In this document: positions 6,531 to 56,222 of the stretch, piece after piece
Layout: each line of letters starts with the position of its first letter
Numbering within the stretch: the first letter of the stretch is position 1
Origin: Malacoraja senta
Lineage: Eukaryota
Assembly (NCBI GenBank): GCA_038087875.1
Contig: CM075988.1
Coordinates: 11,162,001 to 11,226,000, forward strand
DNA length: 64,000 nucleotides
Reading direction: 5' to 3'
Notes under the pieces: generated by a model
Databases searched by the model: none
Seen by the model: the letters and a program-made list of their open reading frames with translations, nothing else
What the model was told of the DNA's origin: nothing
Program-made: the position numbers and the translations under genes

Positions 6531-6622
6531 ATGAGAAACCTTTAACCACCTAACAAATTGTTTTTATTTTGTCAGAGTATAGAACAAAGCCTTTAAAAGT
6601 AGTTTTCCATTGGACTGAAATT

Positions 6623-8107
6623 TCTTAAAGAAACCTGGTCTTGATCCCTCCTCTCTCATTAACTACCGCCCCATCTCAAACCTCCCCTTTCTTTCAAAAA
6701 CCCTGGAGCGCATCGTCGCGTCACAACTTCATTCCCACCTCCTCGCGTATAACCTATTCGAACCCCTCCAATCTGGCTTTCGCCCCCTCCATAGCACAGA
6801 AACTGCTCTCCTCAAAGTCCTCAATGACCTCCTTACCTCTGCTGACTCTGGCTCCCTCAATATCCTCATCCTCCTCGACCTGAGTGCAGCCTTCGATACC
6901 GTCAACCACAACATCCTGCTCAGCAAACTTAGGGACCTTGGCATTGAAGGTTCTGCACTCAGCTGGTTCCGTTCTTACCTTTCCAACCGATCCCACTTCA
7001 TCTCTCTCCATAACCACACCTCTGCCACAGCCACTATCACTCAAGGCGTTCCCCAAGGCTCCGTTCTTGGTCCCCTCCTCTTCATCATCTACATCCTCCC
7101 CCTTGGTCATATACTCCGTCACTTCAACCTGGACTTCCACTGCTATGCTGATGACACCCAGATCTATCTCAGCACCAAGTCCCCCCACCACCCCCCTCTC
7201 TCCCATATCAGCCTATCAGCCATCAAATCTTGGATGCAACTCAACTTCCTTAAATTAAACAGTAGCAAAACAGAATTTCTCCTCATTGGCTCCAAATCAA
7301 CACTCACTAAAATTAACAACCCCACTCTCACTATCGACGGCACCACTGTCTCCCCATCTCCTCAGGCACGCAACCTTGGCGTGATCCTTGACTCAACCCT
7401 CTCCCTTGAGCCTCACATCCGCCATGTTGTCAAAACATCATTTTTTCACCTCCGCAACATTGCAAAAATCAGATCGTCTCTCACACCCCCCGCTGCTGAA
7501 AGACTCATCCATGCCTTCATCTCCTCCCGACTGGACTACTGTAACTCTCTTCTTTTCGGAATCAATTCCAGCAGCATCAAACGACTCCAACTGGTCCAAA
7601 ATGCAGCCGCTCGACTCATTACCCACACCAAATCCTGGCACCACATCACCGCAGTTCTCAAACAACTTCACTGGCTTCCCATTTCCCACCGGATCACCTA
7701 CAAAATCCTGGTCCTCACCTACAAAGCCCTCAACAACCTGGCCCCCCCTTATCTCATTGACCTCCTCTCCCCCTACCAACCCTCACGGTCCCTCAGATCC
7801 ACATCAGCTGGTCTCCTCTCCACTCCGAAATCAAACCTCTGCACTTTTGGAGGCAGAGCCTTCTCCAGGGCAGTTCCCAGGCTCTGGAATTCCCTCCCAC
7901 AACCGGTCCGAAATTCTGAGACCCTCACCATCTTCCAGTCCCGCCTCAAGACCCATCTCTTCACCTCTGCATACCCTTAGTCCCATGTTCCCCTCCCCTC
8001 TGTCTTACTGCTCTATTTTGTTTTGTTTATTCCTGACTCTCAATTGTAAAGCGACTTTGAGTCCCGAAAAGCGCTATATAAATAAAATCTATTATTATTA
8101 TTATTAA
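6623..8107 (+). mobile_element. Young 5'-truncated L2 LINE with (ATT)n tail and 40-bp flanking duplication
   Basis: RT-encoding frame; L2-type tail taaagcgactttgagtcccgaaaagcgctatataaataaa(att)n; direct repeat at 6583-6622 and 8108-8147. Confidence 0.95.
6625..7980 (+). pseudogene. L2 ORF2 reverse transcriptase plus C-terminal domain; stop-free frame lacking the N-terminus
   Basis: Hand translation gives NYRPISNLPFLSK, QSGFRPLHSTETAL, LLDLSAAFDTV, GVPQGSVLGP and CYADDTQIY (7141), in frame with the listed ORF 7234-7980. Confidence 0.92.
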
Positions 8108-17325: not shown

Positions 17326-18240
17326 TCATTTTATTCCATCCCCAACTTCCCTTGTCAGCCACGGTTGCCTCTTACTCACCTTAGAATCTTTCTTCCTCTT
17401 TGGAATGAAATGATCCTGCATCTTCTGGATTATGCCCCAAAAATCCAGCCATTGCTGTTCCACCATCATTCCTGCTAGGATCCTTTTCCAGTCGACCTTG
17501 GCCAGCTCCACTCTCGTGCCTTCATAATCCCCTTTGTTCAACTGCAACACTGACACTTTTGATTTAACCTTCTCCCTCTCAAATTGCAGATTAAAATTTA
17601 TCATATTATGGTCACTACCTCCTAGCGGTCCCTTTATCTTGCGTTCCCTTATTAAATCTGGTTCATTAGACAACACTAAATCCAGAATTGCCTTCTCTCT
17701 GGTAGGGTCCAGTACAAGCTGCTCTAAGAATCCATCTCGGAGGCACTCTACAAACTCCCTCTCTTGGGGTCCAGAGCCAACCTGATTTTCCCAGTCTACC
17801 TGCATATTGAAATCTTCCATAACCACAGTGGCATTACCTTTGTTACATGTCTATTTTAACTCCTGCTGCAACTTGCACCCTATTTCCAGGCTTCTGTTTG
17901 GGGTCCTGTAGATAACTCCCATTAGTGTCTTCTTACCTTTACAATTCCTCAATTCTATCCACAGCGACTCAACATTTTCAGTCCCAATGTCACTCCTCAC
18001 AAGGGACTGAATTTCATCCCTCACCAACATAGCTACCCCACCTCCTTGGCCCACCTGCCTGTCCTTTCTATAGGATGTAGAACCCTGAATATTCAGTTCC
18101 CAGTCCCAATCCTCCTGCAGCCATGTCTCTGTAATCCCCACAATGTCATATCTACCAATCTCTAATTGAGCCTCAAGCTCATCCACTTTACTTCTTCTAC
18201 TTCGCACATTCATATATAATACTTTTAATCCATTACTCAC
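17326..18240 (-). pseudogene. CR1 ORF2 apurinic-like endonuclease (disrupted)
   Basis: ORFs 17851-18240 and 17326-17826 carry ETWL, DFN, LDLV and SDH motifs. Confidence 0.88.
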
Positions 18241-18419
18241 CTCACTTTCACATTGATTCCTATTTCATTTGGCCATACTCTCCTATCCCTACGTGAGCTT
18301 TCTGTCCCGTTAATTCTGGTGTCTCTCTTAATTTTTCCTTTACTCTTTTTCCCTTTAACTCCATCCTTGTATTTCCAATTTGTCTCCCCCACCACACTAT
18401 TTAGTTTAAACCCACCCGT

Positions 18420-28487: not shown

Positions 28488-28765
28488 AAAAGACGGCTGC
28501 ACAGTGTACAGTAAGTCCTTTAGAGAACACGGAGGGGAGAGAAGGGGAGAGAAGGGGGGAGAAGGAGTGGAGACACTTTTAAGAAGTATAATAAAGTTTA
28601 GCGGGCATTTAACCTACCGGTCAGTTTTCCTTGGTCCTGAAAACTCGAATGAGCCAATCAAAATGCCCGGTCAGCGAAGGAGATTGCCTACGGCTGCCCT
28701 TGACTGCCTGTAACTAAATAGCGACCCCACTGCACTGCACTGCACTACGAGTTAAAAAGAACCAT
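28488..28765 (+). repeat. 278-bp direct repeat, copy 1 (copy 2 at 29808-30085)
   Basis: Line-by-line comparison gives 277/278 identity; the only difference is 28603 g versus 29923 a. Confidence 0.97.
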
Positions 28766-29807
28766 ACATACAGGGATATCAAAAAATAACTCCTGATTTA
28801 CTAGAAGAAGTAATGAATATAAAAGCTGATACACAAAAATTAATAGCATATTTATATAATAGTATCTTAAATATAGATTTACCTGTGACCGAGGTAATTA
28901 GAGAAGAGTGGGAACGGGAATTATTGATAAAAATTACGAAGGCTACATGGGAAAAGTATTTGACATACATTCACAAGTGTTCGATTAACGCAAGACATAA
29001 TCTAATCCAATTTAAAATTTTACATAGATTATATTACTCAAAAACAAGATTAAATAAATGTTATCCAAATATATCGCCCATTTGCGATAAATGTTTAATC
29101 CAAGAAGCAACTATAACACACTCTTTTGTTTCTTGTATAAAACTTCATGGATTTTGGAGTGATATTTTCGAAATATTTACAAAATTATTTAAGACAAAAA
29201 TGGAACCCAATAATGAATTGATTATATTTGGGGTAATGGAAGACGGGAACAAATTGAGCTCATCTCAAAAGTCAATTTTTAATTATGGTTTAATAATAGC
29301 AAAAAAATTAATATTGAAATTTTGGAAAAATACACCAATACCAACGCTCAAAATGTGGATTGCAAGTATGTTGGATACCGCACATCTTGAGGAAATGCGA
29401 TTCCTCCTAATAGATAAATTTGACCAATTCATAACGAGTTGGTCTCCATTTGTCGTCTTTTTGGAAACGTATGGTGCAAAACAGGTGTAAAAGCTAATCC
29501 GTGACTGCGGATGGTCAAGATTATAAATGATCTCCTTCTATTTTCTTTTCTTCTTTTCTTTTCATTTATTCTCTTTCTTCTATTTTCTATGTCTCAACTT
29601 TCTTATTTCATTCTTTATTTTTCTTTTTCACACACTATATATCTCACATTTTTCTATTTTTCATTATCTAACTTTTTTCTTTTTCTTCTTTATTTCAAAA
29701 AATTTAAAAAATAAGAAGCTGTACATAAAAGGTATTATGAAAATATGATTGTATACAATTGTACTTCTAATAAAATAAAAATATTAAAAAATAAAAATAA
29801 AATAAAA
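28766..29807 (+). mobile_element. 5'-truncated L1-clade LINE with poly(A) tail
   Basis: ORF2 C-terminus, T-rich 3' UTR, AATAAA at 29769 and an A-rich tail; flanked by a 278-bp direct repeat. Confidence 0.92.
28813..29490 (+). pseudogene. L1 ORF2 C-terminal domain with CCHC zinc knuckle (225 aa, no RT core)
   Basis: QFKILHRLY, CDKCLIQEATITHSFVSC (CX2CX8HX4C) and AKKLILKFWK. Confidence 0.9.
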
Positions 29808-34374: not shown

Positions 34375-34482
34375 CAAAGTTAGTCCTCGGTCTGAAGAAG
34401 AGTCTCAACTCAAAACCTCAAATCCATGTTCTCCAGAGATGCTGCCTGACCCATTGAGTTACTCCAACGCTTTGTGTCCTTT
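34375..34482 (+). mobile_element. Penelope-derived mini-unit with 14-bp TSD, inserted into an older Penelope endonuclease remnant
   Basis: tatgagatgttgtt at 34361-34374 and 34483-34496. Confidence 0.75.
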
Positions 34483-34554
34483 TATGAGATGTTGTTTGTC
34501 TGATTTGCATTTGGCCTCTCAATATTTAGATTTTCAACCTAGCAACTATCTCTG

Positions 34555-34697
34555 GCTTCTTCTATTTCTTGCGTATGGCGTGCACAGCCTAAAGTTGTAG
34601 GACAACGTGTTCTATTAGATGTATTTGTTTGCGCACGTCGGGTTGATTGCATTAGTCGAAACAGATGGACCACGTGAAGGTTGCAATCTCCCACCCC
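34555..34697 (-). mobile_element. 143-nt non-autonomous retroelement (Ingi/Vingi-like tail) with 10-bp TSD
   Basis: actatctctg at 34545-34554 and 34698-34707; 3' end gccatacgcaagaaatagaagaag; no tRNA A or B boxes. Confidence 0.85.
34645..34697 (-). ncRNA. Candidate minimal HDV-like (CPEB3-like) self-cleaving ribozyme
   Basis: GGGGUGG GA GAUUGCA ACC UUCACGU GGU CCAUCU GU UUCGA CUAA UGCAAUC maps to P1, P2, P3/L3, P1', P1.1, stub P4, J4/2 with C, and P2'. Confidence 0.8.
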
Positions 34698-34789
34698 ACT
34701 ATCTCTGTAATGATGACCACTAACCATATTTCAGGATTATGAAAAATCCTTCCCAATAGTCTGACAGAAAAGAGCAAGACAGGTCAACA

Positions 34790-34885
34790 GTGTCCGAAGA
34801 AGGGTCTCGACCCGAAACATCAACTATTCCTTTTCTACAGAGATGCTGTCTGACCCACTGAGTTACCTTAGCTTTTTGTGTCAAC
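34790..34885 (+). mobile_element. Penelope-derived short unit
   Basis: gtccgaagaagggtctcgacccgaaac...gagttac. Confidence 0.75.
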
Positions 34886-53950: not shown

Positions 53951-54129
53951 ACATCAGAGTTCTCTCCCAAGTAATGGACCATTCTGCCTTGACTATCTTT
54001 CACAGATCTTTCATTGCCACACGGAATAAAATCTTATAACTCTGTCATAGAGCATGTGTAGGGTAGGGCATGGTGAGTATTTCTTTCCTTTACAACTCCA
54101 CCAACATGTACGAATAGAAACAAGTCCCA

Positions 54130-56222
54130 CGTTCTAAAAGGGTTGACGGTGGATATGCAATGGAAGGCATTTAAAGACTGCATGGATGAACTACAAAAAT
54201 TGTTCATCCCAGTTTGGCAAAAGAATAAATCAGGGAAGGTAGTGCATCCGTGGATAACAAGGGAAATCAGGGATAGTATCAAAGCAAAAGATGATGCGTA
54301 CAAATTAGCCAGAAAAAGCAGCATACCAGAGGACTGGGAGAAATTCAGAGACCAGCAGACGAGGACAAAGAGCTTAATTAGGAAAGGGAAAATAGATTAT
54401 GAAAGGAAACTGGCAGGGAACATAAAAACTGACTGCAAACGTTTTTACAGATATGTGAAGAGAAAGAGATTAGTTAAAACAAATGTAGGTCCCTTGCAGT
54501 CAGAAACAGGTGAATTGATCATGGGGAACAAGGATATGGCAGACCAATTGAATAACTACTTTGGTGCCGTCTTCACTAAGGAAGACATAAATAATCTGCC
54601 GGAAATAGCAGGGGGCCGCGGGTCAAAGGAGATGGAGGAACTGAGTGAAATCCAGGTTAGTCGGGAAGTGGTGTTGGGTAAATTGAATGGATTAAAGGCC
54701 GATAAATCACCAGGGCCAGATAGGCTGCATCCCAGAGTACTTAAGGAAGTAGCTCCAGAAATAGTGGATGCATTAGTGATAATTTTTCAAAACTCTTTAG
54801 ATTCTGGAGTAGTTCCTGAGGATTGGAGGGTAGCAAACGTAACCCCACTTTTTAAGAAGGGAGGGAGAGAGAAAATGGGGAATTACAGACCAGTTGGTCT
54901 AACATCGGTAGTGGGGAAACTGCTAGAGTCAGTTATTAAAGATGGGATAGCAGCACATTTGGAAAGTGGTGAAATCATTGGACAAAGTCAGCATGGATTT
55001 ACGAAAGGTAAATCGTGTCTGACGAATCTTATAGAATTTTTCGAGGATGTAACTAGTAGAGTGGATAGGGGAGAACCAGTGGATGTGTTGTATCTGGACT
55101 TTCAGAAGGCTTTCGACAAGGTACCACATAAGAGATTAGGATACAAACTTAAATCACACGGTATTGGGGGTTCAGTATTGATGTGGATAGAGAACTGGCT
55201 GGCAAACAGGAAGCAAAGAGTAGGAGTAAACGGGTCCTTTTCACAATGGCAGGCAGTGACTAGTGGGGTACCGCAAGGCTCAGTGCTTTATTTACAATTT
55301 ATATTAATGATCTGGACGAGTGAATTGAAAGCAACATCTCCAAGTTTGCGAATGACACTAAGCTGGGGGGCAGTGTTAGCTGTGAGGAGGATGCTAGGAG
55401 ACTGCAAGGTGACTTGGATAGGCTGGGTGAGTGGGCAAATGTGGACTAGGAAAAGGGGGTGGGTGAGTGGACTAGGAAAAGGGGAGATGCAGCGAGACCT
55501 GGGTGTCATGGTACACCAGTCATTGAAAGTAGGCATGCAGGTGCAGCAGGCAGTGAAGAAAGCGAATGGTATGTTGGCCTTCATAGCAAGAAGATTTGAG
55601 TATAGGAGCAGGGAGGTTCTACTGCATTTGTACAGGGTCTTGGTGAGACCACACCTGGAGTATTGCGTACAGTTTTGGTCTCCAAATCTGAGGAAGGACA
55701 TTATAGCCATAGAGGGAGTGCAGAGAAGGTTCACCAGACTGATTCCTGGGATGTCAGGACTTTCATATGAAGAAAGACTGGATAGACTTGGCTTATACTC
55801 GCTAGAATTTAGGAGATTGAGAGGGGATCTTATAGAAACGTACAAAATTCTTATGGGGTTGGACAGGCTAGATGCAGGAAGATTGTTCCCGATGTTGGGG
55901 AAGTCCAGGACAAGGGGTCACAGCTTAAGGATAAGGGGGAAATCCTTTAAGACCGAGATGAGGAAACACTTTTTCACACAGAGAGTGGTGAATCTCTGGA
56001 ACTCTCTGCCACAGAGGGCAGTTGAGGCCAGTTCATTGGCTATATTTAAGAGGGAGTTAGATGTGGCCCTTGTGGCTAAAGGGATCAGGGGGTATGGAGA
56101 GAAGGCAGGTACGGGATACTGAGTTGGATGATCAGCCATGATCATATTGAATGGCGGTGCAGGCTCGAAGGGCCGAATGGCCTACTCCTGCACCTATTTT
56201 ATATGTATCTATGTATCTATGT
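54130..56222 (+). mobile_element. Young 5'-truncated CR1 LINE (about 2.1 kb)
   Basis: Tether and RT region, 3' UTR and (tatctatg)n tail; same subfamily as 2786-3431 and 41872-42867. Confidence 0.96.
54143..56122 (+). pseudogene. CR1 ORF2 RT region; 659-codon open frame, but the catalytic motif is out of frame and mutated
   Basis: KSPGPD, NYRPV, QHGF, YLDFQKAFDKV and GVPQGSVL are in frame; YINDL...KFANDTK lies in another frame between about 55288 and 55470. Confidence 0.9.

What the first reader, a model, noticed from the sequence alone, without database searches (positions are those of the whole stretch)
34555..34697. 143-nt retroelement whose 5' end is a minimal HDV/CPEB3-like ribozyme
Seen: a 10-bp TSD (actatctctg, 34545-34554 and 34698-34707) defines the element exactly. 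Its first 53 nt on the minus strand read GGGGUGG-GA-GAUUGCA-ACC-UUCACGU-GGU-CCAUCU-GU-UUCGA-CUAA-UGCAAUC. P2 is a perfect 7 bp. P3 is ACC/GGU around a 7-nt loop. P1 has 6 bp closed by a G-U wobble. The J4/2 CUAA places a candidate catalytic C at 34655, and P4 is reduced to a stub. Established: this is the HDV nested double-pseudoknot order, UUCACGU is the L3 of the CPEB3 ribozyme, and HDV-like ribozymes process the 5' ends of R2, L1Tc/Ingi and related retroelements. Inference: this is a promoterless SINE-like element that cuts itself out of host read-through transcripts and borrows an Ingi/Vingi-type RT via its GAA-rich tail. Caveat: the P1 3' strand is 1 nt shorter than the 5' strand, so this copy may be impaired or may cleave one base in. 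I cannot tell whether the family is already catalogued.
Basis: partly seen in the sequence, partly recalled or inferred. Interest (0 to 1): 0.88.

Follow-up and report, generated by a model that had tools for sequence, protein, structure and literature searches.

The report
Ribozyme-headed mini-LINE of a ray genome
This 143-base repeat is a stripped-down copy of a jumping gene (a Vingi-type LINE) that keeps only the LINE's two ends, and its first 54 bases fold like the self-cutting HDV/CPEB3 ribozyme, which most likely trims the RNA to its exact start.

Summary

The element belongs to a family with about 1,300 or more first-look candidates in a 1.94-Gb genome. The 54-nt majority head occurs 152 times exactly. 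That majority form has a perfect 7-bp P1 with a G1·U wobble. The window copy has lost one base there.

I found the autonomous partner, a compact single-ORF APE+RT LINE. It starts with the same ribozyme plus 26 further shared bases. It ends with the same ~50 bases and (GAA)n tail. The element is therefore a bipartite non-autonomous LINE, not a pol III SINE.

Sister LINE families in the genome start with ribozymes that score 47-64 bits on Rfam's mammalian CPEB3 model, whose cut-off is 35 bits. Genome-wide, 39 matches exceed the cut-off.

Across six families, 18 of 25 base pairs show double changes. A model built without family 1 still finds its intact heads.

Repbase Vingi 5' ends printed in a 2018 supplement carry the same motif.

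Self-cleavage itself is untested. The window copy is probably impaired.

The parts
34698..34707 (.). Target-site duplication, copy next to the element's 5' end (ACTATCTCTG on the + strand)
   Evidence: Exact 10-bp repeat seen. The automatic TSD search gives 10 bp abutting G1 for L001, which is this copy.
34545..34554 (.). Target-site duplication, copy next to the element's 3' tail
34555..34697 (-). Whole 143-nt bipartite non-autonomous LINE ('SINE-like') copy
   Evidence: Repeat family: 1368 first-look candidates, 40 scored at 91-100% identity. In the 52-copy alignment, conservation steps up sharply at G1.
34645..34697 (-). HDV/CPEB3-type ribozyme head, 53 nt in this copy and 54 nt in the family majority
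   Evidence: Parse. Covariation across six families. Model R1, built without this family, finds intact copies at 26-31 bits but does not find this copy at E<=1.
34691..34697 (-). P1 5' strand GGGGTGG; G1 at 34697 is the predicted first base after the cut
   Evidence: Among 51 distinct copies, 36 have an exact TSD of 8 bp or more, and 34 of those lie within 2 nt of G1.
34682..34688 (-). P2 5' strand GATTGCA
   Evidence: Pairs 7/7 with 34645-34651. 6 of 7 P2 pairs change on both sides across families.
34669..34681 (-). P3 (ACC/GGT) with the 7-nt L3 TTCACGT
   Evidence: L3 is identical to the L3 of the Rfam CPEB3 consensus. T20, T21, C22, C24 and T26 are invariant in 28 sequences.
34663..34668 (-). 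P1 3' strand, damaged in this copy (CCATCT; the family majority is CCACCCT)
34656..34662 (-). GT (invariant G37 and T38 of the alignment) plus TTCGA, which stands in place of P4
   Evidence: The linker matches the one in minimal-P4 family 6, GTTTCCACCAA.
34652..34655 (-). J4/2 CTAA; candidate catalytic C at 34655
   Evidence: The C is conserved in at least 90% and the following A is invariant in 28 sequences. The second letter varies: T, G or A in other organisms' contigs and T, G or C between the families of this genome.
34645..34651 (-). P2 3' strand TGCAATC
34619..34644 (-). 26 nt shared with the partner LINE's 5' UTR just after its ribozyme
   Evidence: L094 (C8:19401600-19402300) reads ribozyme + AACCCGACGTGCAC.AACAAATAGAT and then diverges. 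A 45-mer spanning this junction has 114 genome matches with up to 3 mismatches, against 0 for the control.
34606..34618 (-). 13-nt linker of unknown origin between the two LINE-derived parts
   Evidence: It is present in neither the LINE 5' end nor the LINE 3' end.
34555..34605 (-). About 50 nt shared with the partner LINE's 3' end: its last codons, the TAG stop, a short 3' UTR and a GAA-rich tail
   Evidence: 29 of 30 LINE loci (L062-L091) end in a recognisable form of ...TTGA[TC]CTACAACTTTAGGCTGTGCACGCCATACGCAAGAAGAAG, several with internal deletions; L087 diverges at once after TTCATC. The ORF ...AWMSTLDLQL* runs into this part.

Best explanation
The element is a bipartite non-autonomous derivative of a compact single-ORF LINE of the Vingi type. 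It keeps about 80 nt of the LINE's 5' end and about 50 nt of its 3' end, joined by a 13-nt linker.

The first 54 nt of the family form a minimal HDV/CPEB3-type double pseudoknot. It has a 7-bp P1 with a G1.U wobble, a 7-bp P2, a 3-bp P3 with L3 UUCACGU, J4/2 C-N-A-A, and P4 reduced to a stub.

Most likely mechanism (inferred):
1. The element is transcribed as part of a longer RNA.
2. The ribozyme cuts just 5' of G1. The RNA then begins with a compact knot.
3. The shared 3' end with its (GAA)n tail is bound in trans by the partner LINE's protein.
4. Target-primed reverse transcription copies the RNA up to G1. The new copy has a precise 5' end and 8-14-bp target-site duplications.

Shown here: the family structure, both shared ends, the sharp 5' ends, the fold's covariation, and homology to Rfam-grade CPEB3-type ribozymes.

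Inferred: cleavage, dependence on read-through transcription, and trans-mobilisation.

The window copy has a 1-nt deletion and a C>T change in the P1 3' strand. It is an old insertion and is probably a poor ribozyme or an inactive one.
For: Family and ends.
- 1368 first-look candidates; 40 scored, 36 of them starting at query base 1-2.
- 152 exact copies of the 54-nt head.
- 36 of 51 distinct copies have an exact TSD of 8 bp or more. 17 of these abut G1 exactly and 11 are ambiguous by one base.

Partner LINE.
- A 23-mer upstream of the shared 3' part has 399 genome matches with up to 2 mismatches.
- 30 loci show the classic staggered 5' truncation with a common 3' end.
- RVT_1 scores E=2e-30.
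- The closest full-length protein, P0001, is 1019 aa with APE+RT, 76% identical, on a 3344-nt contig.
- The 5' end of a near-full-length copy carries the same ribozyme and the next 26 nt. That junction has 114 matches.

Fold.
- The MFE fold of the 54 nt alone gives P1+P3.
- In 28 sequences of six families, 90.8% of cells pair, against 36-48% when partners are slid.
- 18 of 25 pairs change on both sides. The covariation score is 0.412 against at most 0.103 for slid partners. 0 of 500 shuffles reach any of the four measures that exceed control.

Homology.
- Sister families score 47-64 bits on RF00622, cut-off 35, in 8 of 9 loci.
- Genome-wide, 39 of 59 scored matches exceed the cut-off, against 0 in 14 control genomes.
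- Model R1, built from families 2-6 only, hits 19 family-1 heads in the set searched (18 SINE copies and the LINE 5' end L094), each spanning all or all but the first 2-4 nt of the 54-nt head, at 26-31 bits with rough E of 1e-5 to 3e-4 in 189 kb. L030 reaches only 16.3 bits.

Other organisms.
- Contigs of four other organisms hold the element with the same boundaries.
- Inside the head, the only variants at 10% or more are A32>G (keeps U5 paired as U.G), G42>A (in the stub) and T45>G/A (the N of C-N-A-A). 12 of the 17 difference rows (15 substitutions, 2 indels) lie at 10 places downstream of the head.

Precedent. HDV-like ribozymes process the 5' ends of R2 and L1Tc and of their non-autonomous derivatives (abstracts; PMC5786205 section 23).
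Against: - No cleavage assay was done, and no RNA run was available to test 5' ends.
- Rfam finds no HDV or CPEB3 family in the window copy, even at E<=10. It finds none in intact family-1 copies at E<=1.
- The window copy is also missed by my own model.
- Within this genome's copies the head is not better conserved than the rest: 4.3% against 3.0% differences from the majority in 52 top-scoring copies. This is expected for dead insertions, but it gives no support.
- The covariation rests on about six lineages. The first P1 pair is not standard in 11 of 25 cells.
- A loose structural descriptor alone gives 3 chance hits in the 128 kb of both window strands.
- A sharp 5' end would also follow from a fixed transcription start.
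- E-values of model R1 are rough.
Confidence: 0.85

Rival explanations
1. The conserved 5' knot is kept for a job other than self-cleavage. It could be an internal promoter read at the DNA level (as Pr77 of L1Tc is), a protein-binding or translation-start module, or a protective 5' cap substitute. On this view the minimal-P4 form of family 1 no longer cuts.
For: - The L1Tc head is both a promoter and a ribozyme (abstract of PMC3383444).
- In the LINEs the knot sits only about 30-85 nt before the ORF start.
- The title of Ruminski et al. 2011, seen only in reference lists, links such ribozymes to translation initiation.
- Family 1 falls below the Rfam threshold.
- Sharp 5' ends fit a fixed transcription start as well.
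Against: - The catalytic-core letters are invariant or nearly so across six families: C in J4/2, the AA after it, C22 in L3, and GU after P1.
- Helices covary in just the way the catalytic fold needs.
- A second family with the same minimal linker still passes the Rfam CPEB3 cut-off at 36-44 bits.
- These roles do not exclude cleavage.
Confidence: 0.1
2. It is an ordinary pol III SINE whose 5' end is set by an internal promoter, and the HDV-like parse is a coincidence.
For: - Short length, high copy number and a precise 5' end.
- GTTTCGACT loosely resembles a B box. This is my recollection of the consensus and comes from no tool.
Against: - No tRNA, 5S or 7SL match at E<=10, and ARAGORN finds nothing.
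- The same head starts a protein-coding LINE.
- Covariation and model-based homology support the ribozyme fold.
Confidence: 0.02
3. The copy L094 that links ribozyme and LINE is a chance juxtaposition of a SINE inserted next to a truncated LINE, so the element and the LINE share only their 3' ends.
For: Only one near-full-length family-1 LINE 5' end was read in full (L094). It is a decayed copy: the two matched pieces of that copy show 14 TGA and 1 TAA in frame.
Against: - The junction from ribozyme end into LINE-type 5' UTR recurs 114 times with up to 3 mismatches, against 0 for the control.
- It is also present, inverted, in L095 and L096.
- Sister LINE families 2 and 3 likewise start with their own ribozyme just upstream of intact ~1000-aa ORFs.
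Confidence: 0.03

Closest known systems
NARTc/L1Tc and RIME/ingi of trypanosomes (Ingi clade): non-autonomous elements that keep the LINE's first 77 nt, which act as an HDV-like ribozyme and as a promoter
   Same: Both are bipartite non-autonomous LINEs made of the 5' and 3' ends of the autonomous element, with an HDV-like ribozyme as the very 5' end. Vingi is the sister clade of Ingi (PMC5786205 section 23; abstracts).
   Different: The host is a cartilaginous fish. The ribozyme is of the CPEB3 sequence type with a stub in place of P4. Promoter activity was not examined. Vingi is absent from the list of six ribozyme-bearing clades in PMC5786205.
R2 SIDEs (R2-derived non-autonomous elements with the R2 5' ribozyme)
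   Same: Internal-deletion derivatives that keep the 5' self-cleaving ribozyme and the 3' end the protein binds (abstract of PMC3414825).
   Different: R2 is site-specific for 28S rDNA and uses a restriction-like endonuclease. Here insertions are dispersed and the partner has an APE endonuclease.
Vingi non-autonomous derivatives (the internal-deletion derivatives of Vingi-1_EE; SINE2-1_ACar and SINE2-1_AMi carrying Vingi 5' parts)
   Same: The same LINE clade gives rise to bipartite non-autonomous elements. The Repbase Vingi 5' ends printed in the supplement carry the same GCGTTCACGTCGCG...CCCTGTCAG...CTGCGAAT motif as sister families 2-5 here.
   Different: Those papers treat the 5' part as 'Vingi 5'-UTR' and do not call it a ribozyme. 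This is a new family in an elasmobranch, with different helix sequences and minimal P4.
Mammalian CPEB3 ribozyme (Rfam RF00622)
   Same: Identical L3, the same helix lengths (P1 7, P2 7, P3 3), GU after P1 and C-N-A-A in J4/2. Sister LINE heads in this genome score 47-64 bits on the model.
   Different: The CPEB3 ribozyme is a single-copy intronic element of mammals with a full P4. Family 1 here is a multicopy retroelement head with a stub P4, and it scores below E=1 on RF00622.
Minimal HDV-like and theta ribozymes
   Same: HDV-like core with P4 reduced or absent (abstract of 10.1101/2023.06.13.544163 in the listing).
   Different: Those are bacterial or phage examples beside tRNAs. This one heads a vertebrate retroelement.

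Membership tests
HDV-like self-cleaving ribozyme (nested double pseudoknot) | P1 of about 7 bp starting at the first nucleotide after the cut, closed by a G1.U wobble | tested here: met
   The family majority GGGGTGG/CCACCCT gives 7/7 pairs with G1.U. In the window copy only 6 pairs remain, G1 is unpaired and one base is deleted.
HDV-like self-cleaving ribozyme (nested double pseudoknot) | P2 crossing P1 (a pseudoknot), with its 3' strand at the end of the motif | tested here: met
   GATTGCA/TGCAATC pair 7/7. Across families 94.5% of cells pair and 6 of 7 pairs change on both sides.
HDV-like self-cleaving ribozyme (nested double pseudoknot) | A 3-bp P3 with a 7-nt L3, directly followed by the P1 3' strand | tested here: met
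   ACC-TTCACGT-GGT is followed directly by CCACCCT. 2 of 3 P3 pairs change on both sides.
HDV-like self-cleaving ribozyme (nested double pseudoknot) | P1.1 between an L3 cytosine and the G after P1 | tested here: inconclusive
   C22 and G37 are present and invariant in 28 sequences. With no variation there can be no covariation test.
HDV-like self-cleaving ribozyme (nested double pseudoknot) | Catalytic C in J4/2 just before the P2 3' strand | tested here: met
   CTAA precedes TGCAATC. The C is conserved in at least 90% and the next A is invariant. C is found at family position 44 in 51 of 52 copies.
HDV-like self-cleaving ribozyme (nested double pseudoknot) | Site-specific self-cleavage that depends on that C | not testable with these tools
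No run is on record as RNA and only contigs were available.
Rfam RF00622 CPEB3_ribozyme | Score at or above the gathering cut-off of 35 bits | tested here: not met
   Family 1 (the window copy, L011, L021 and LINE L094) gives no match at E<=10 or E<=1. Sister families 2 and 3 score 47-64 bits in 8 of 9 loci. Families 4-6 score 36-54 bits in the whole-genome search (loci read).
Rfam RF00622 CPEB3_ribozyme | Homology to bona fide members, shown by a model that excludes the candidate | tested here: met
   R1, built from families 2-6, finds intact family-1 heads at 26-31 bits with rough E of 1e-5 to 3e-4. The window copy is not found at E<=1.
Bipartite non-autonomous LINE | The 5' end is shared with the 5' end of an autonomous LINE | tested here: met
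   L094 carries the ribozyme plus 26 nt identical in order. The junction 45-mer has 114 matches.
Bipartite non-autonomous LINE | The 3' end, including the tail, is shared with the same LINE | tested here: met
   29 of 30 LINE loci end with a recognisable form of the element's last ~50 nt and (GAA)n, several with internal deletions; L087 diverges.
Bipartite non-autonomous LINE | No ORF, target-site duplications, dispersed copies | tested here: met
   The element is 143 nt. 36 of 51 copies have a TSD of 8 bp or more. Copies lie on many contigs.
SINE in the strict sense (pol III head) | A head derived from tRNA, 5S, 7SL or snRNA | tested here: not met
   No Rfam match of these kinds at E<=10. ARAGORN finds 0 genes.
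Vingi clade of non-LTR retrotransposons (for the partner LINE) | A compact single ORF with APE and RT and no RNase H | tested here: met
   P0001 (76% identical, 1019 aa, on a 3344-nt contig) lists only PF03372, PF14529 and PF00078. The genome copies are decayed. A CxCx8Hx4C motif lies at the C terminus, with a weak zf-RVT match at E=0.002.
Vingi clade of non-LTR retrotransposons (for the partner LINE) | The 5' end resembles the Repbase Vingi 5' ends | tested here: met
   Compared by eye only. Vingi-2_Gav 2-74, Vingi-4_Crp 1-64, Vingi-1_BF 8-69 and Vingi-2_SPur 395-451, as printed in the supplement, share the core and layout of families 2-5 here.
Vingi clade of non-LTR retrotransposons (for the partner LINE) | The RT groups with Vingi reference proteins in a tree | not tested
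   No reference Vingi, Ingi or RTE proteins were available to the tools.

The most novel reading that the evidence does not exclude
A CPEB3-family ribozyme is the standard 5' terminus of Vingi-clade LINEs across deuterostomes: ray here, and crocodilian, amphioxus and sea-urchin Repbase families in print. On this reading, the single-copy ribozyme in the mammalian CPEB3 intron is the domesticated head of an ancient Vingi insertion. The 143-nt element shows how far that head can be trimmed (P4 to a stub) and still be propagated.
Probability: 0.5. Interest if true: 0.8.

Novelty: new member of a known kind. Interest (0 to 1): 0.66.

Why it matters
Ribozyme-headed LINEs and their stripped-down derivatives are known (R2, L1Tc/NARTc, RTE), so the element itself is a new member of a known kind. 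Three points go further.

1. It places the Vingi clade among ribozyme-processed LINEs. A 2018 survey lists six such clades without Vingi, although it prints Vingi 5' ends that carry the motif. In the library searched, no paper links Vingi to a ribozyme.

2. LINE heads in a cartilaginous fish pass Rfam's 'mammalian CPEB3 ribozyme' model by a wide margin. This makes the origin of the CPEB3 ribozyme, open since 2006, directly testable as a retrotransposon domestication.

3. Vingi-1 of the green anole is being developed as a gene-insertion tool with its native 5' UTR retained (review PMC13708176, passages). Knowing that this UTR type is probably a self-cleaving, end-protecting knot bears on template design.

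Tried and rejected
- Rfam on 34400-34850 at E<=10 gave only chance hits (UCA1, two snoRNAs). The whole window at gathering scores gave nothing.
- A 60-nt DNA search with the head returned 0 candidates. The tool skips very common words, so this is uninformative.
- A search with the 3' 62 nt returned only copies of the element itself in 30 of 30 loci.
- 'Not-SINE' patterns placed after the head or after position 93 gave 1 and 6 hits. The two I read (L061, L093) were deletion variants, not LINEs.
- Fetching 6 kb upstream of LINE copy L078 showed that copy to be truncated and yielded nothing.
- The partner LINE was finally reached through a loose-end consensus in the laid contigs.
- No RNA holder was listed. 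All runs were contigs, so 5' ends, strand and expression could not be tested.
- My structural descriptor found 3 loose chance hits in the window. It missed the damaged window copy.
- The 5' regions of two LINE families at 48% identity (L097, L098) showed no clear full ribozyme. L097 gives a 33-bit partial match without an evident P1 5' strand.
- The bacterial promoter/terminator scan found nothing and is not relevant to a eukaryote.
- Pfam on 73 window ORFs (10, 63) found only LINE domains and no host gene.
- Earlier-findings look-ups returned nothing relevant.
- Two papers were not held: PMC3002237 (Kojima 2011, Vingi) and PMC3308841 (Ruminski 2011). These may already state some of what is inferred here.
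- Structure prediction and complex tools were not used because the feature is an RNA.
Full report
**1. The observation**

The minus strand of window 34555-34697 is a 143-nt unit. It is flanked by the exact 10-bp repeat ACTATCTCTG at 34545-34554 and 34698-34707.

Its first 53 nt read GGGGTGG-GA-GATTGCA-ACC-TTCACGT-GGT-CCATCT-GT-TTCGA-CTAA-TGCAATC.
- P2 is a perfect 7-bp helix.
- P3 is ACC/GGT around a 7-nt loop.
- P1 has six pairs, with G1 left unpaired.
- The C of CTAA lies at 34655.

**2. A real repeat family with a sharp 5' end**

The window's genome is 1.94 Gb in 6182 contigs.
- The 143 nt give 1368 first-look candidates. All 40 scored hits are 91-100% identical, and 36 of the 40 start at query base 1 or 2.
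- I aligned 52 distinct copies, which are the best-scoring ones and so a biased sample. Column conservation jumps from about 0.3-0.4 to above 0.9 at the first G.
- Of 51 distinct copies, 36 have an exact target-site duplication of 8 bp or more within -2 to +4 nt of G1. 17 abut G1 exactly. 11 are ambiguous by one base or lack G1. 6 have one or two extra bases.
- The tail is (GAA)n.

The majority form of the P1 3' strand is CCACCCT, which gives a perfect 7-bp P1 closed by G1.U. The window copy has lost one C; 5 of 52 copies have a gap in that C run. It also carries a C>T change. The 54-nt majority head occurs 152 times exactly, against 0 for the reversed control.

**3. Finding the partner LINE**

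Direct attempts failed.
- The 3' 62 nt found only copies of the element.
- 'Not-SINE' patterns found only deletion variants.

No run is on record as RNA. I therefore laid contigs of four other organisms.
- All four hold the element, in 1020, 133, 727 and 90 contigs.
- Cover is confined to the element. Diverse loose ends begin exactly at G1.
- A minority of contigs join the last ~45 nt to a different, conserved upstream sequence.

A 23-mer from that sequence has 399 matches with up to 2 mismatches in the genome.
- The 30 loci fetched show staggered 5' truncation with a common 3' end, and 29 of the 30 keep a recognisable form of that end...CTACCC-TTGA[TC]CTACAACTTTAG-GCTGTGCACGCCATACGCAAGAAGAAG(n).
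- An RT ORF (RVT_1, E=2e-30) runs into the shared part and stops at that TAG. A CxCx8Hx4C motif lies near its end.
- The closest full-length protein, P0001, is 76% identical and 1019 aa long. It has APE and RT domains only and sits on a 3344-nt contig.

A near-full-length but decayed genomic copy lies at C8:19402165 to about 19404980. It begins (T)GGGTGGGAGATTGCAACCTTCACGTGGTCCACCCTGTTTCAACTAATGCAATC. Next come the 26 nt that follow the head in the 143-nt element, after which it diverges into LINE 5' UTR. A 45-mer across that junction has 114 matches with up to 3 mismatches, against 0 for the control.

The 143-nt element is therefore LINE 5' end (~80 nt) + a 13-nt linker + LINE 3' end (~50 nt). 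This is a bipartite non-autonomous LINE. It has no tRNA, 5S or 7SL head.

**4. Is the head a ribozyme? Comparative evidence**

Rfam finds nothing in the window copy, even at E<=10. It also finds nothing in intact family-1 copies at E<=1.

The genome holds related LINE families at about 40-48% protein identity to P0001, several with intact ORFs of about 1000 aa. The 5' ends of one such family read GGGGATC-AA-GGTAGAA-GCG-TTCACGT-CGC-GATCCCT-GT-CAAGTAAT-loop-ATTACTTG-CGAA-TTCTACC. Upstream flanks are unrelated between copies.

These heads, and those of a third family, score 47-64 bits on RF00622 (CPEB3_ribozyme, cut-off 35) in 8 of 9 loci. Over the whole genome, 51 of 59 scored candidates match at E<=1e-3. 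39 are over the cut-off, and none of 14 control genomes rings.

Twenty more loci revealed families 3-6. One of them has a minimal P4 whose linker, GTTTCCACCAA, parallels the element's GTTTCGACTAA.

I aligned 28 sequences, of which 26 are distinct. I left out copies truncated within the motif: L104, L107, L109-L111, L119, L125, L128 and L130. On this alignment the HDV-type structure behaves as follows:
- 90.8% of cells form standard pairs, against 36-48% when partners are slid and 75.8% in shuffles.
- 18 of 25 pairs change on both sides.
- The covariation score is 0.412, against at most 0.103 for slid partners.
- 0 of 500 shuffles reach these values. The count of pair types is the exception (243 of 500 shuffles reach it).

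Between family 1 and family 2:
- P1 positions 5-7 are TGG/CCA against ATC/GAT.
- P2 is GATTGCA/TGCAATC against GGTAGAA/TTCTACC.
- P3 is ACC/GGT against GCG/CGC.
- L3, the GU after P1, and C-N-A-A stay fixed.

A covariance model built from families 2-6 only (A2, R1) finds 19 family-1 heads in the set searched: 18 SINE copies and the LINE 5' end L094. Each hit covers all, or all but the first 2-4 nt, of the 54-nt head. Scores are 26-31 bits, with rough E of 1e-5 to 3e-4 in 189 kb. It does not find the damaged window copy at E<=1.

**5. Evidence that cuts the other way**

- Cleavage is untested.
- Inserted copies show no extra conservation of the head: 4.3% against 3.0% differences from the majority. 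This is expected for dead copies but lends no support.
- The covariation comes from about six lineages.
- The first P1 pair is non-standard in 11 of 25 cells, partly because family 6 starts with T.
- A loose structural descriptor alone hits 3 times by chance in the window.
- A fixed transcription start would also give sharp 5' ends.

In the four other organisms, the only variants inside the head at 10% or more are:
- A32>G, which keeps U5 paired as U.G;
- G42>A, in the stub;
- T45>G/A, the variable letter of J4/2.

By contrast, 12 of the 17 difference rows (15 substitutions and 2 indels) lie at 10 places downstream of the head. This fits constraint on the source genes, but it is modest evidence.

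**6. Which LINE clade, and which host**

The best named relatives of an unrelated LINE ORF in the window are elasmobranch proteins, the top one 85% identical to a stingray entry. The host is therefore a cartilaginous fish, probably a ray.

Section 23 of Kojima 2018 (PMC5786205) states the following.
- Only RTE, Ingi, Vingi and R2 are known to give bipartite non-autonomous LINEs.
[quoted passage not shown] Vingi is not listed.

The supplement of that paper (passages read) prints the 5' ends of four Repbase Vingi families:
- Vingi-2_Gav (2-74)
- Vingi-4_Crp (1-64)
- Vingi-1_BF (8-69)
- Vingi-2_SPur (395-451)

By eye, all carry the same layout and core as families 2-5 here. Vingi-2_Gav also shares P2 (AGCAGAA/TTCTGCT) with the Rfam CPEB3 consensus printed.

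I could not build an RT tree.

**7. Mechanism**

Shown:
- family structure;
- both ends shared with the LINE;
- precise 5' junctions;
- a conserved, covarying double-pseudoknot head homologous to Rfam-grade CPEB3-type ribozymes.

Inferred:
1. The element is transcribed within longer RNAs.
2. The head cuts 5' of G1.
3. The knot protects the new 5' end. In the LINEs it sits about 30-85 nt before the start codon.
4. The LINE protein recognises the shared 3' ~50 nt plus (GAA)n and copies the RNA to its first base.

**8. Novelty**

Ribozyme-headed LINEs and their bipartite derivatives are known, so the element is a new member of a known kind.

In the library searched, no paper links Vingi with a ribozyme or with CPEB3. 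The relevant searches were:
- 6 papers hold both 'Vingi' and 'ribozyme'; I read passages in two of the three on transposons, and neither assigns a ribozyme to Vingi;
-;
-;
- passages.

Two key papers were not held and may bear on this.

The boldest reading is that the CPEB3 ribozyme family is the ancestral head of Vingi LINEs, and that the mammalian CPEB3 ribozyme is a domesticated Vingi head. Nothing here excludes it, and it is directly testable.

Noticed in passing
L099, L101-L103, L105, L106, L108, L113, L115 (e.g. G000:C1:217550485-217550568): A sister LINE family, about 40% identical in protein to P0001 and with intact ~1000-aa ORFs, starts exactly at GGGGATC... with a 73-nt ribozyme. It scores 47-64 bits on Rfam's mammalian CPEB3 model, and the upstream flanks are unrelated between copies.
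   Followed up: yes
L121, L123, L127, L129, L131 (family 6): This is a second minimal-P4 ribozyme family (54 nt, linker GTTTCCACCAA). It still passes the CPEB3 cut-off at 36-44 bits. Its first letter is T rather than G in 4 of 5 copies, which the G1.U rule does not explain.
   Followed up: partly
L100 (G000:C4:35489600-35490200) and L109: The 5' end of a family-2 LINE carries three to four tandem partial repeats of the ribozyme's first half (GATCAAGGTAGAAGCGTTCACGTCGC) before a complete unit. This could be template slippage at the RNA's 5' end.
   Followed up: no
L095 and L096 (G000:C4466:192700-193400, C2339:49100-49800): A family-1 LINE copy has its 5' UTR and ribozyme segment inverted relative to the ORF, in a twin-priming-like arrangement. 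It is present as duplicates on two contigs.
   Followed up: no
element positions about 60-68 and 113-121 (window about 34577-34638, minus strand): The LINE 5'-UTR-derived ACGTGCAC and the 3'-end GTGCACG are complementary. The MFE fold of the whole element pairs them in an 8-bp long-range stem, so the two LINE ends might contact each other in the RNA.
   Followed up: no
window 34420-34480 and 34790-34880 (+): Two copies of another abundant repeat (...agagatgctg.ctgaccc..tgagttac...) flank the element within 250 nt. The same repeat also flanks other family copies (L028, L073).
   Followed up: no
window 6619-8107 (+), 17326-18264 (-), 28756-29490 (+), 54077-56122 (+): These are unrelated LINE fragments (RVT_1, APE and zf-RVT domains). 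The 681-aa ORF at 54077-56122 is 85% identical to a protein annotated in a stingray. That places the genome among elasmobranchs.
   Followed up: partly
L097 (G000:C1:165944040-165944600, minus strand): The 5' region of a LINE family 48% identical in protein gives a 33-bit match to my ribozyme model. The match overlaps the predicted ATG, and no P1 5' strand is evident.
   Followed up: partly
one search hit list: LINE reverse-transcriptase proteins about 42-49% identical to the window ORF are filed under bacterial names (a Carnobacterium and a Symploca record). These are probably animal DNA in bacterial or metagenome assemblies.
   Followed up: no
G000, one search list: At least 17 of the 114 junction matches end in ...GTTTTTC instead of ...GTTTTGG. 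They lie on small unplaced contigs, which suggests a separate subfamily or a segmentally amplified copy.
   Followed up: no
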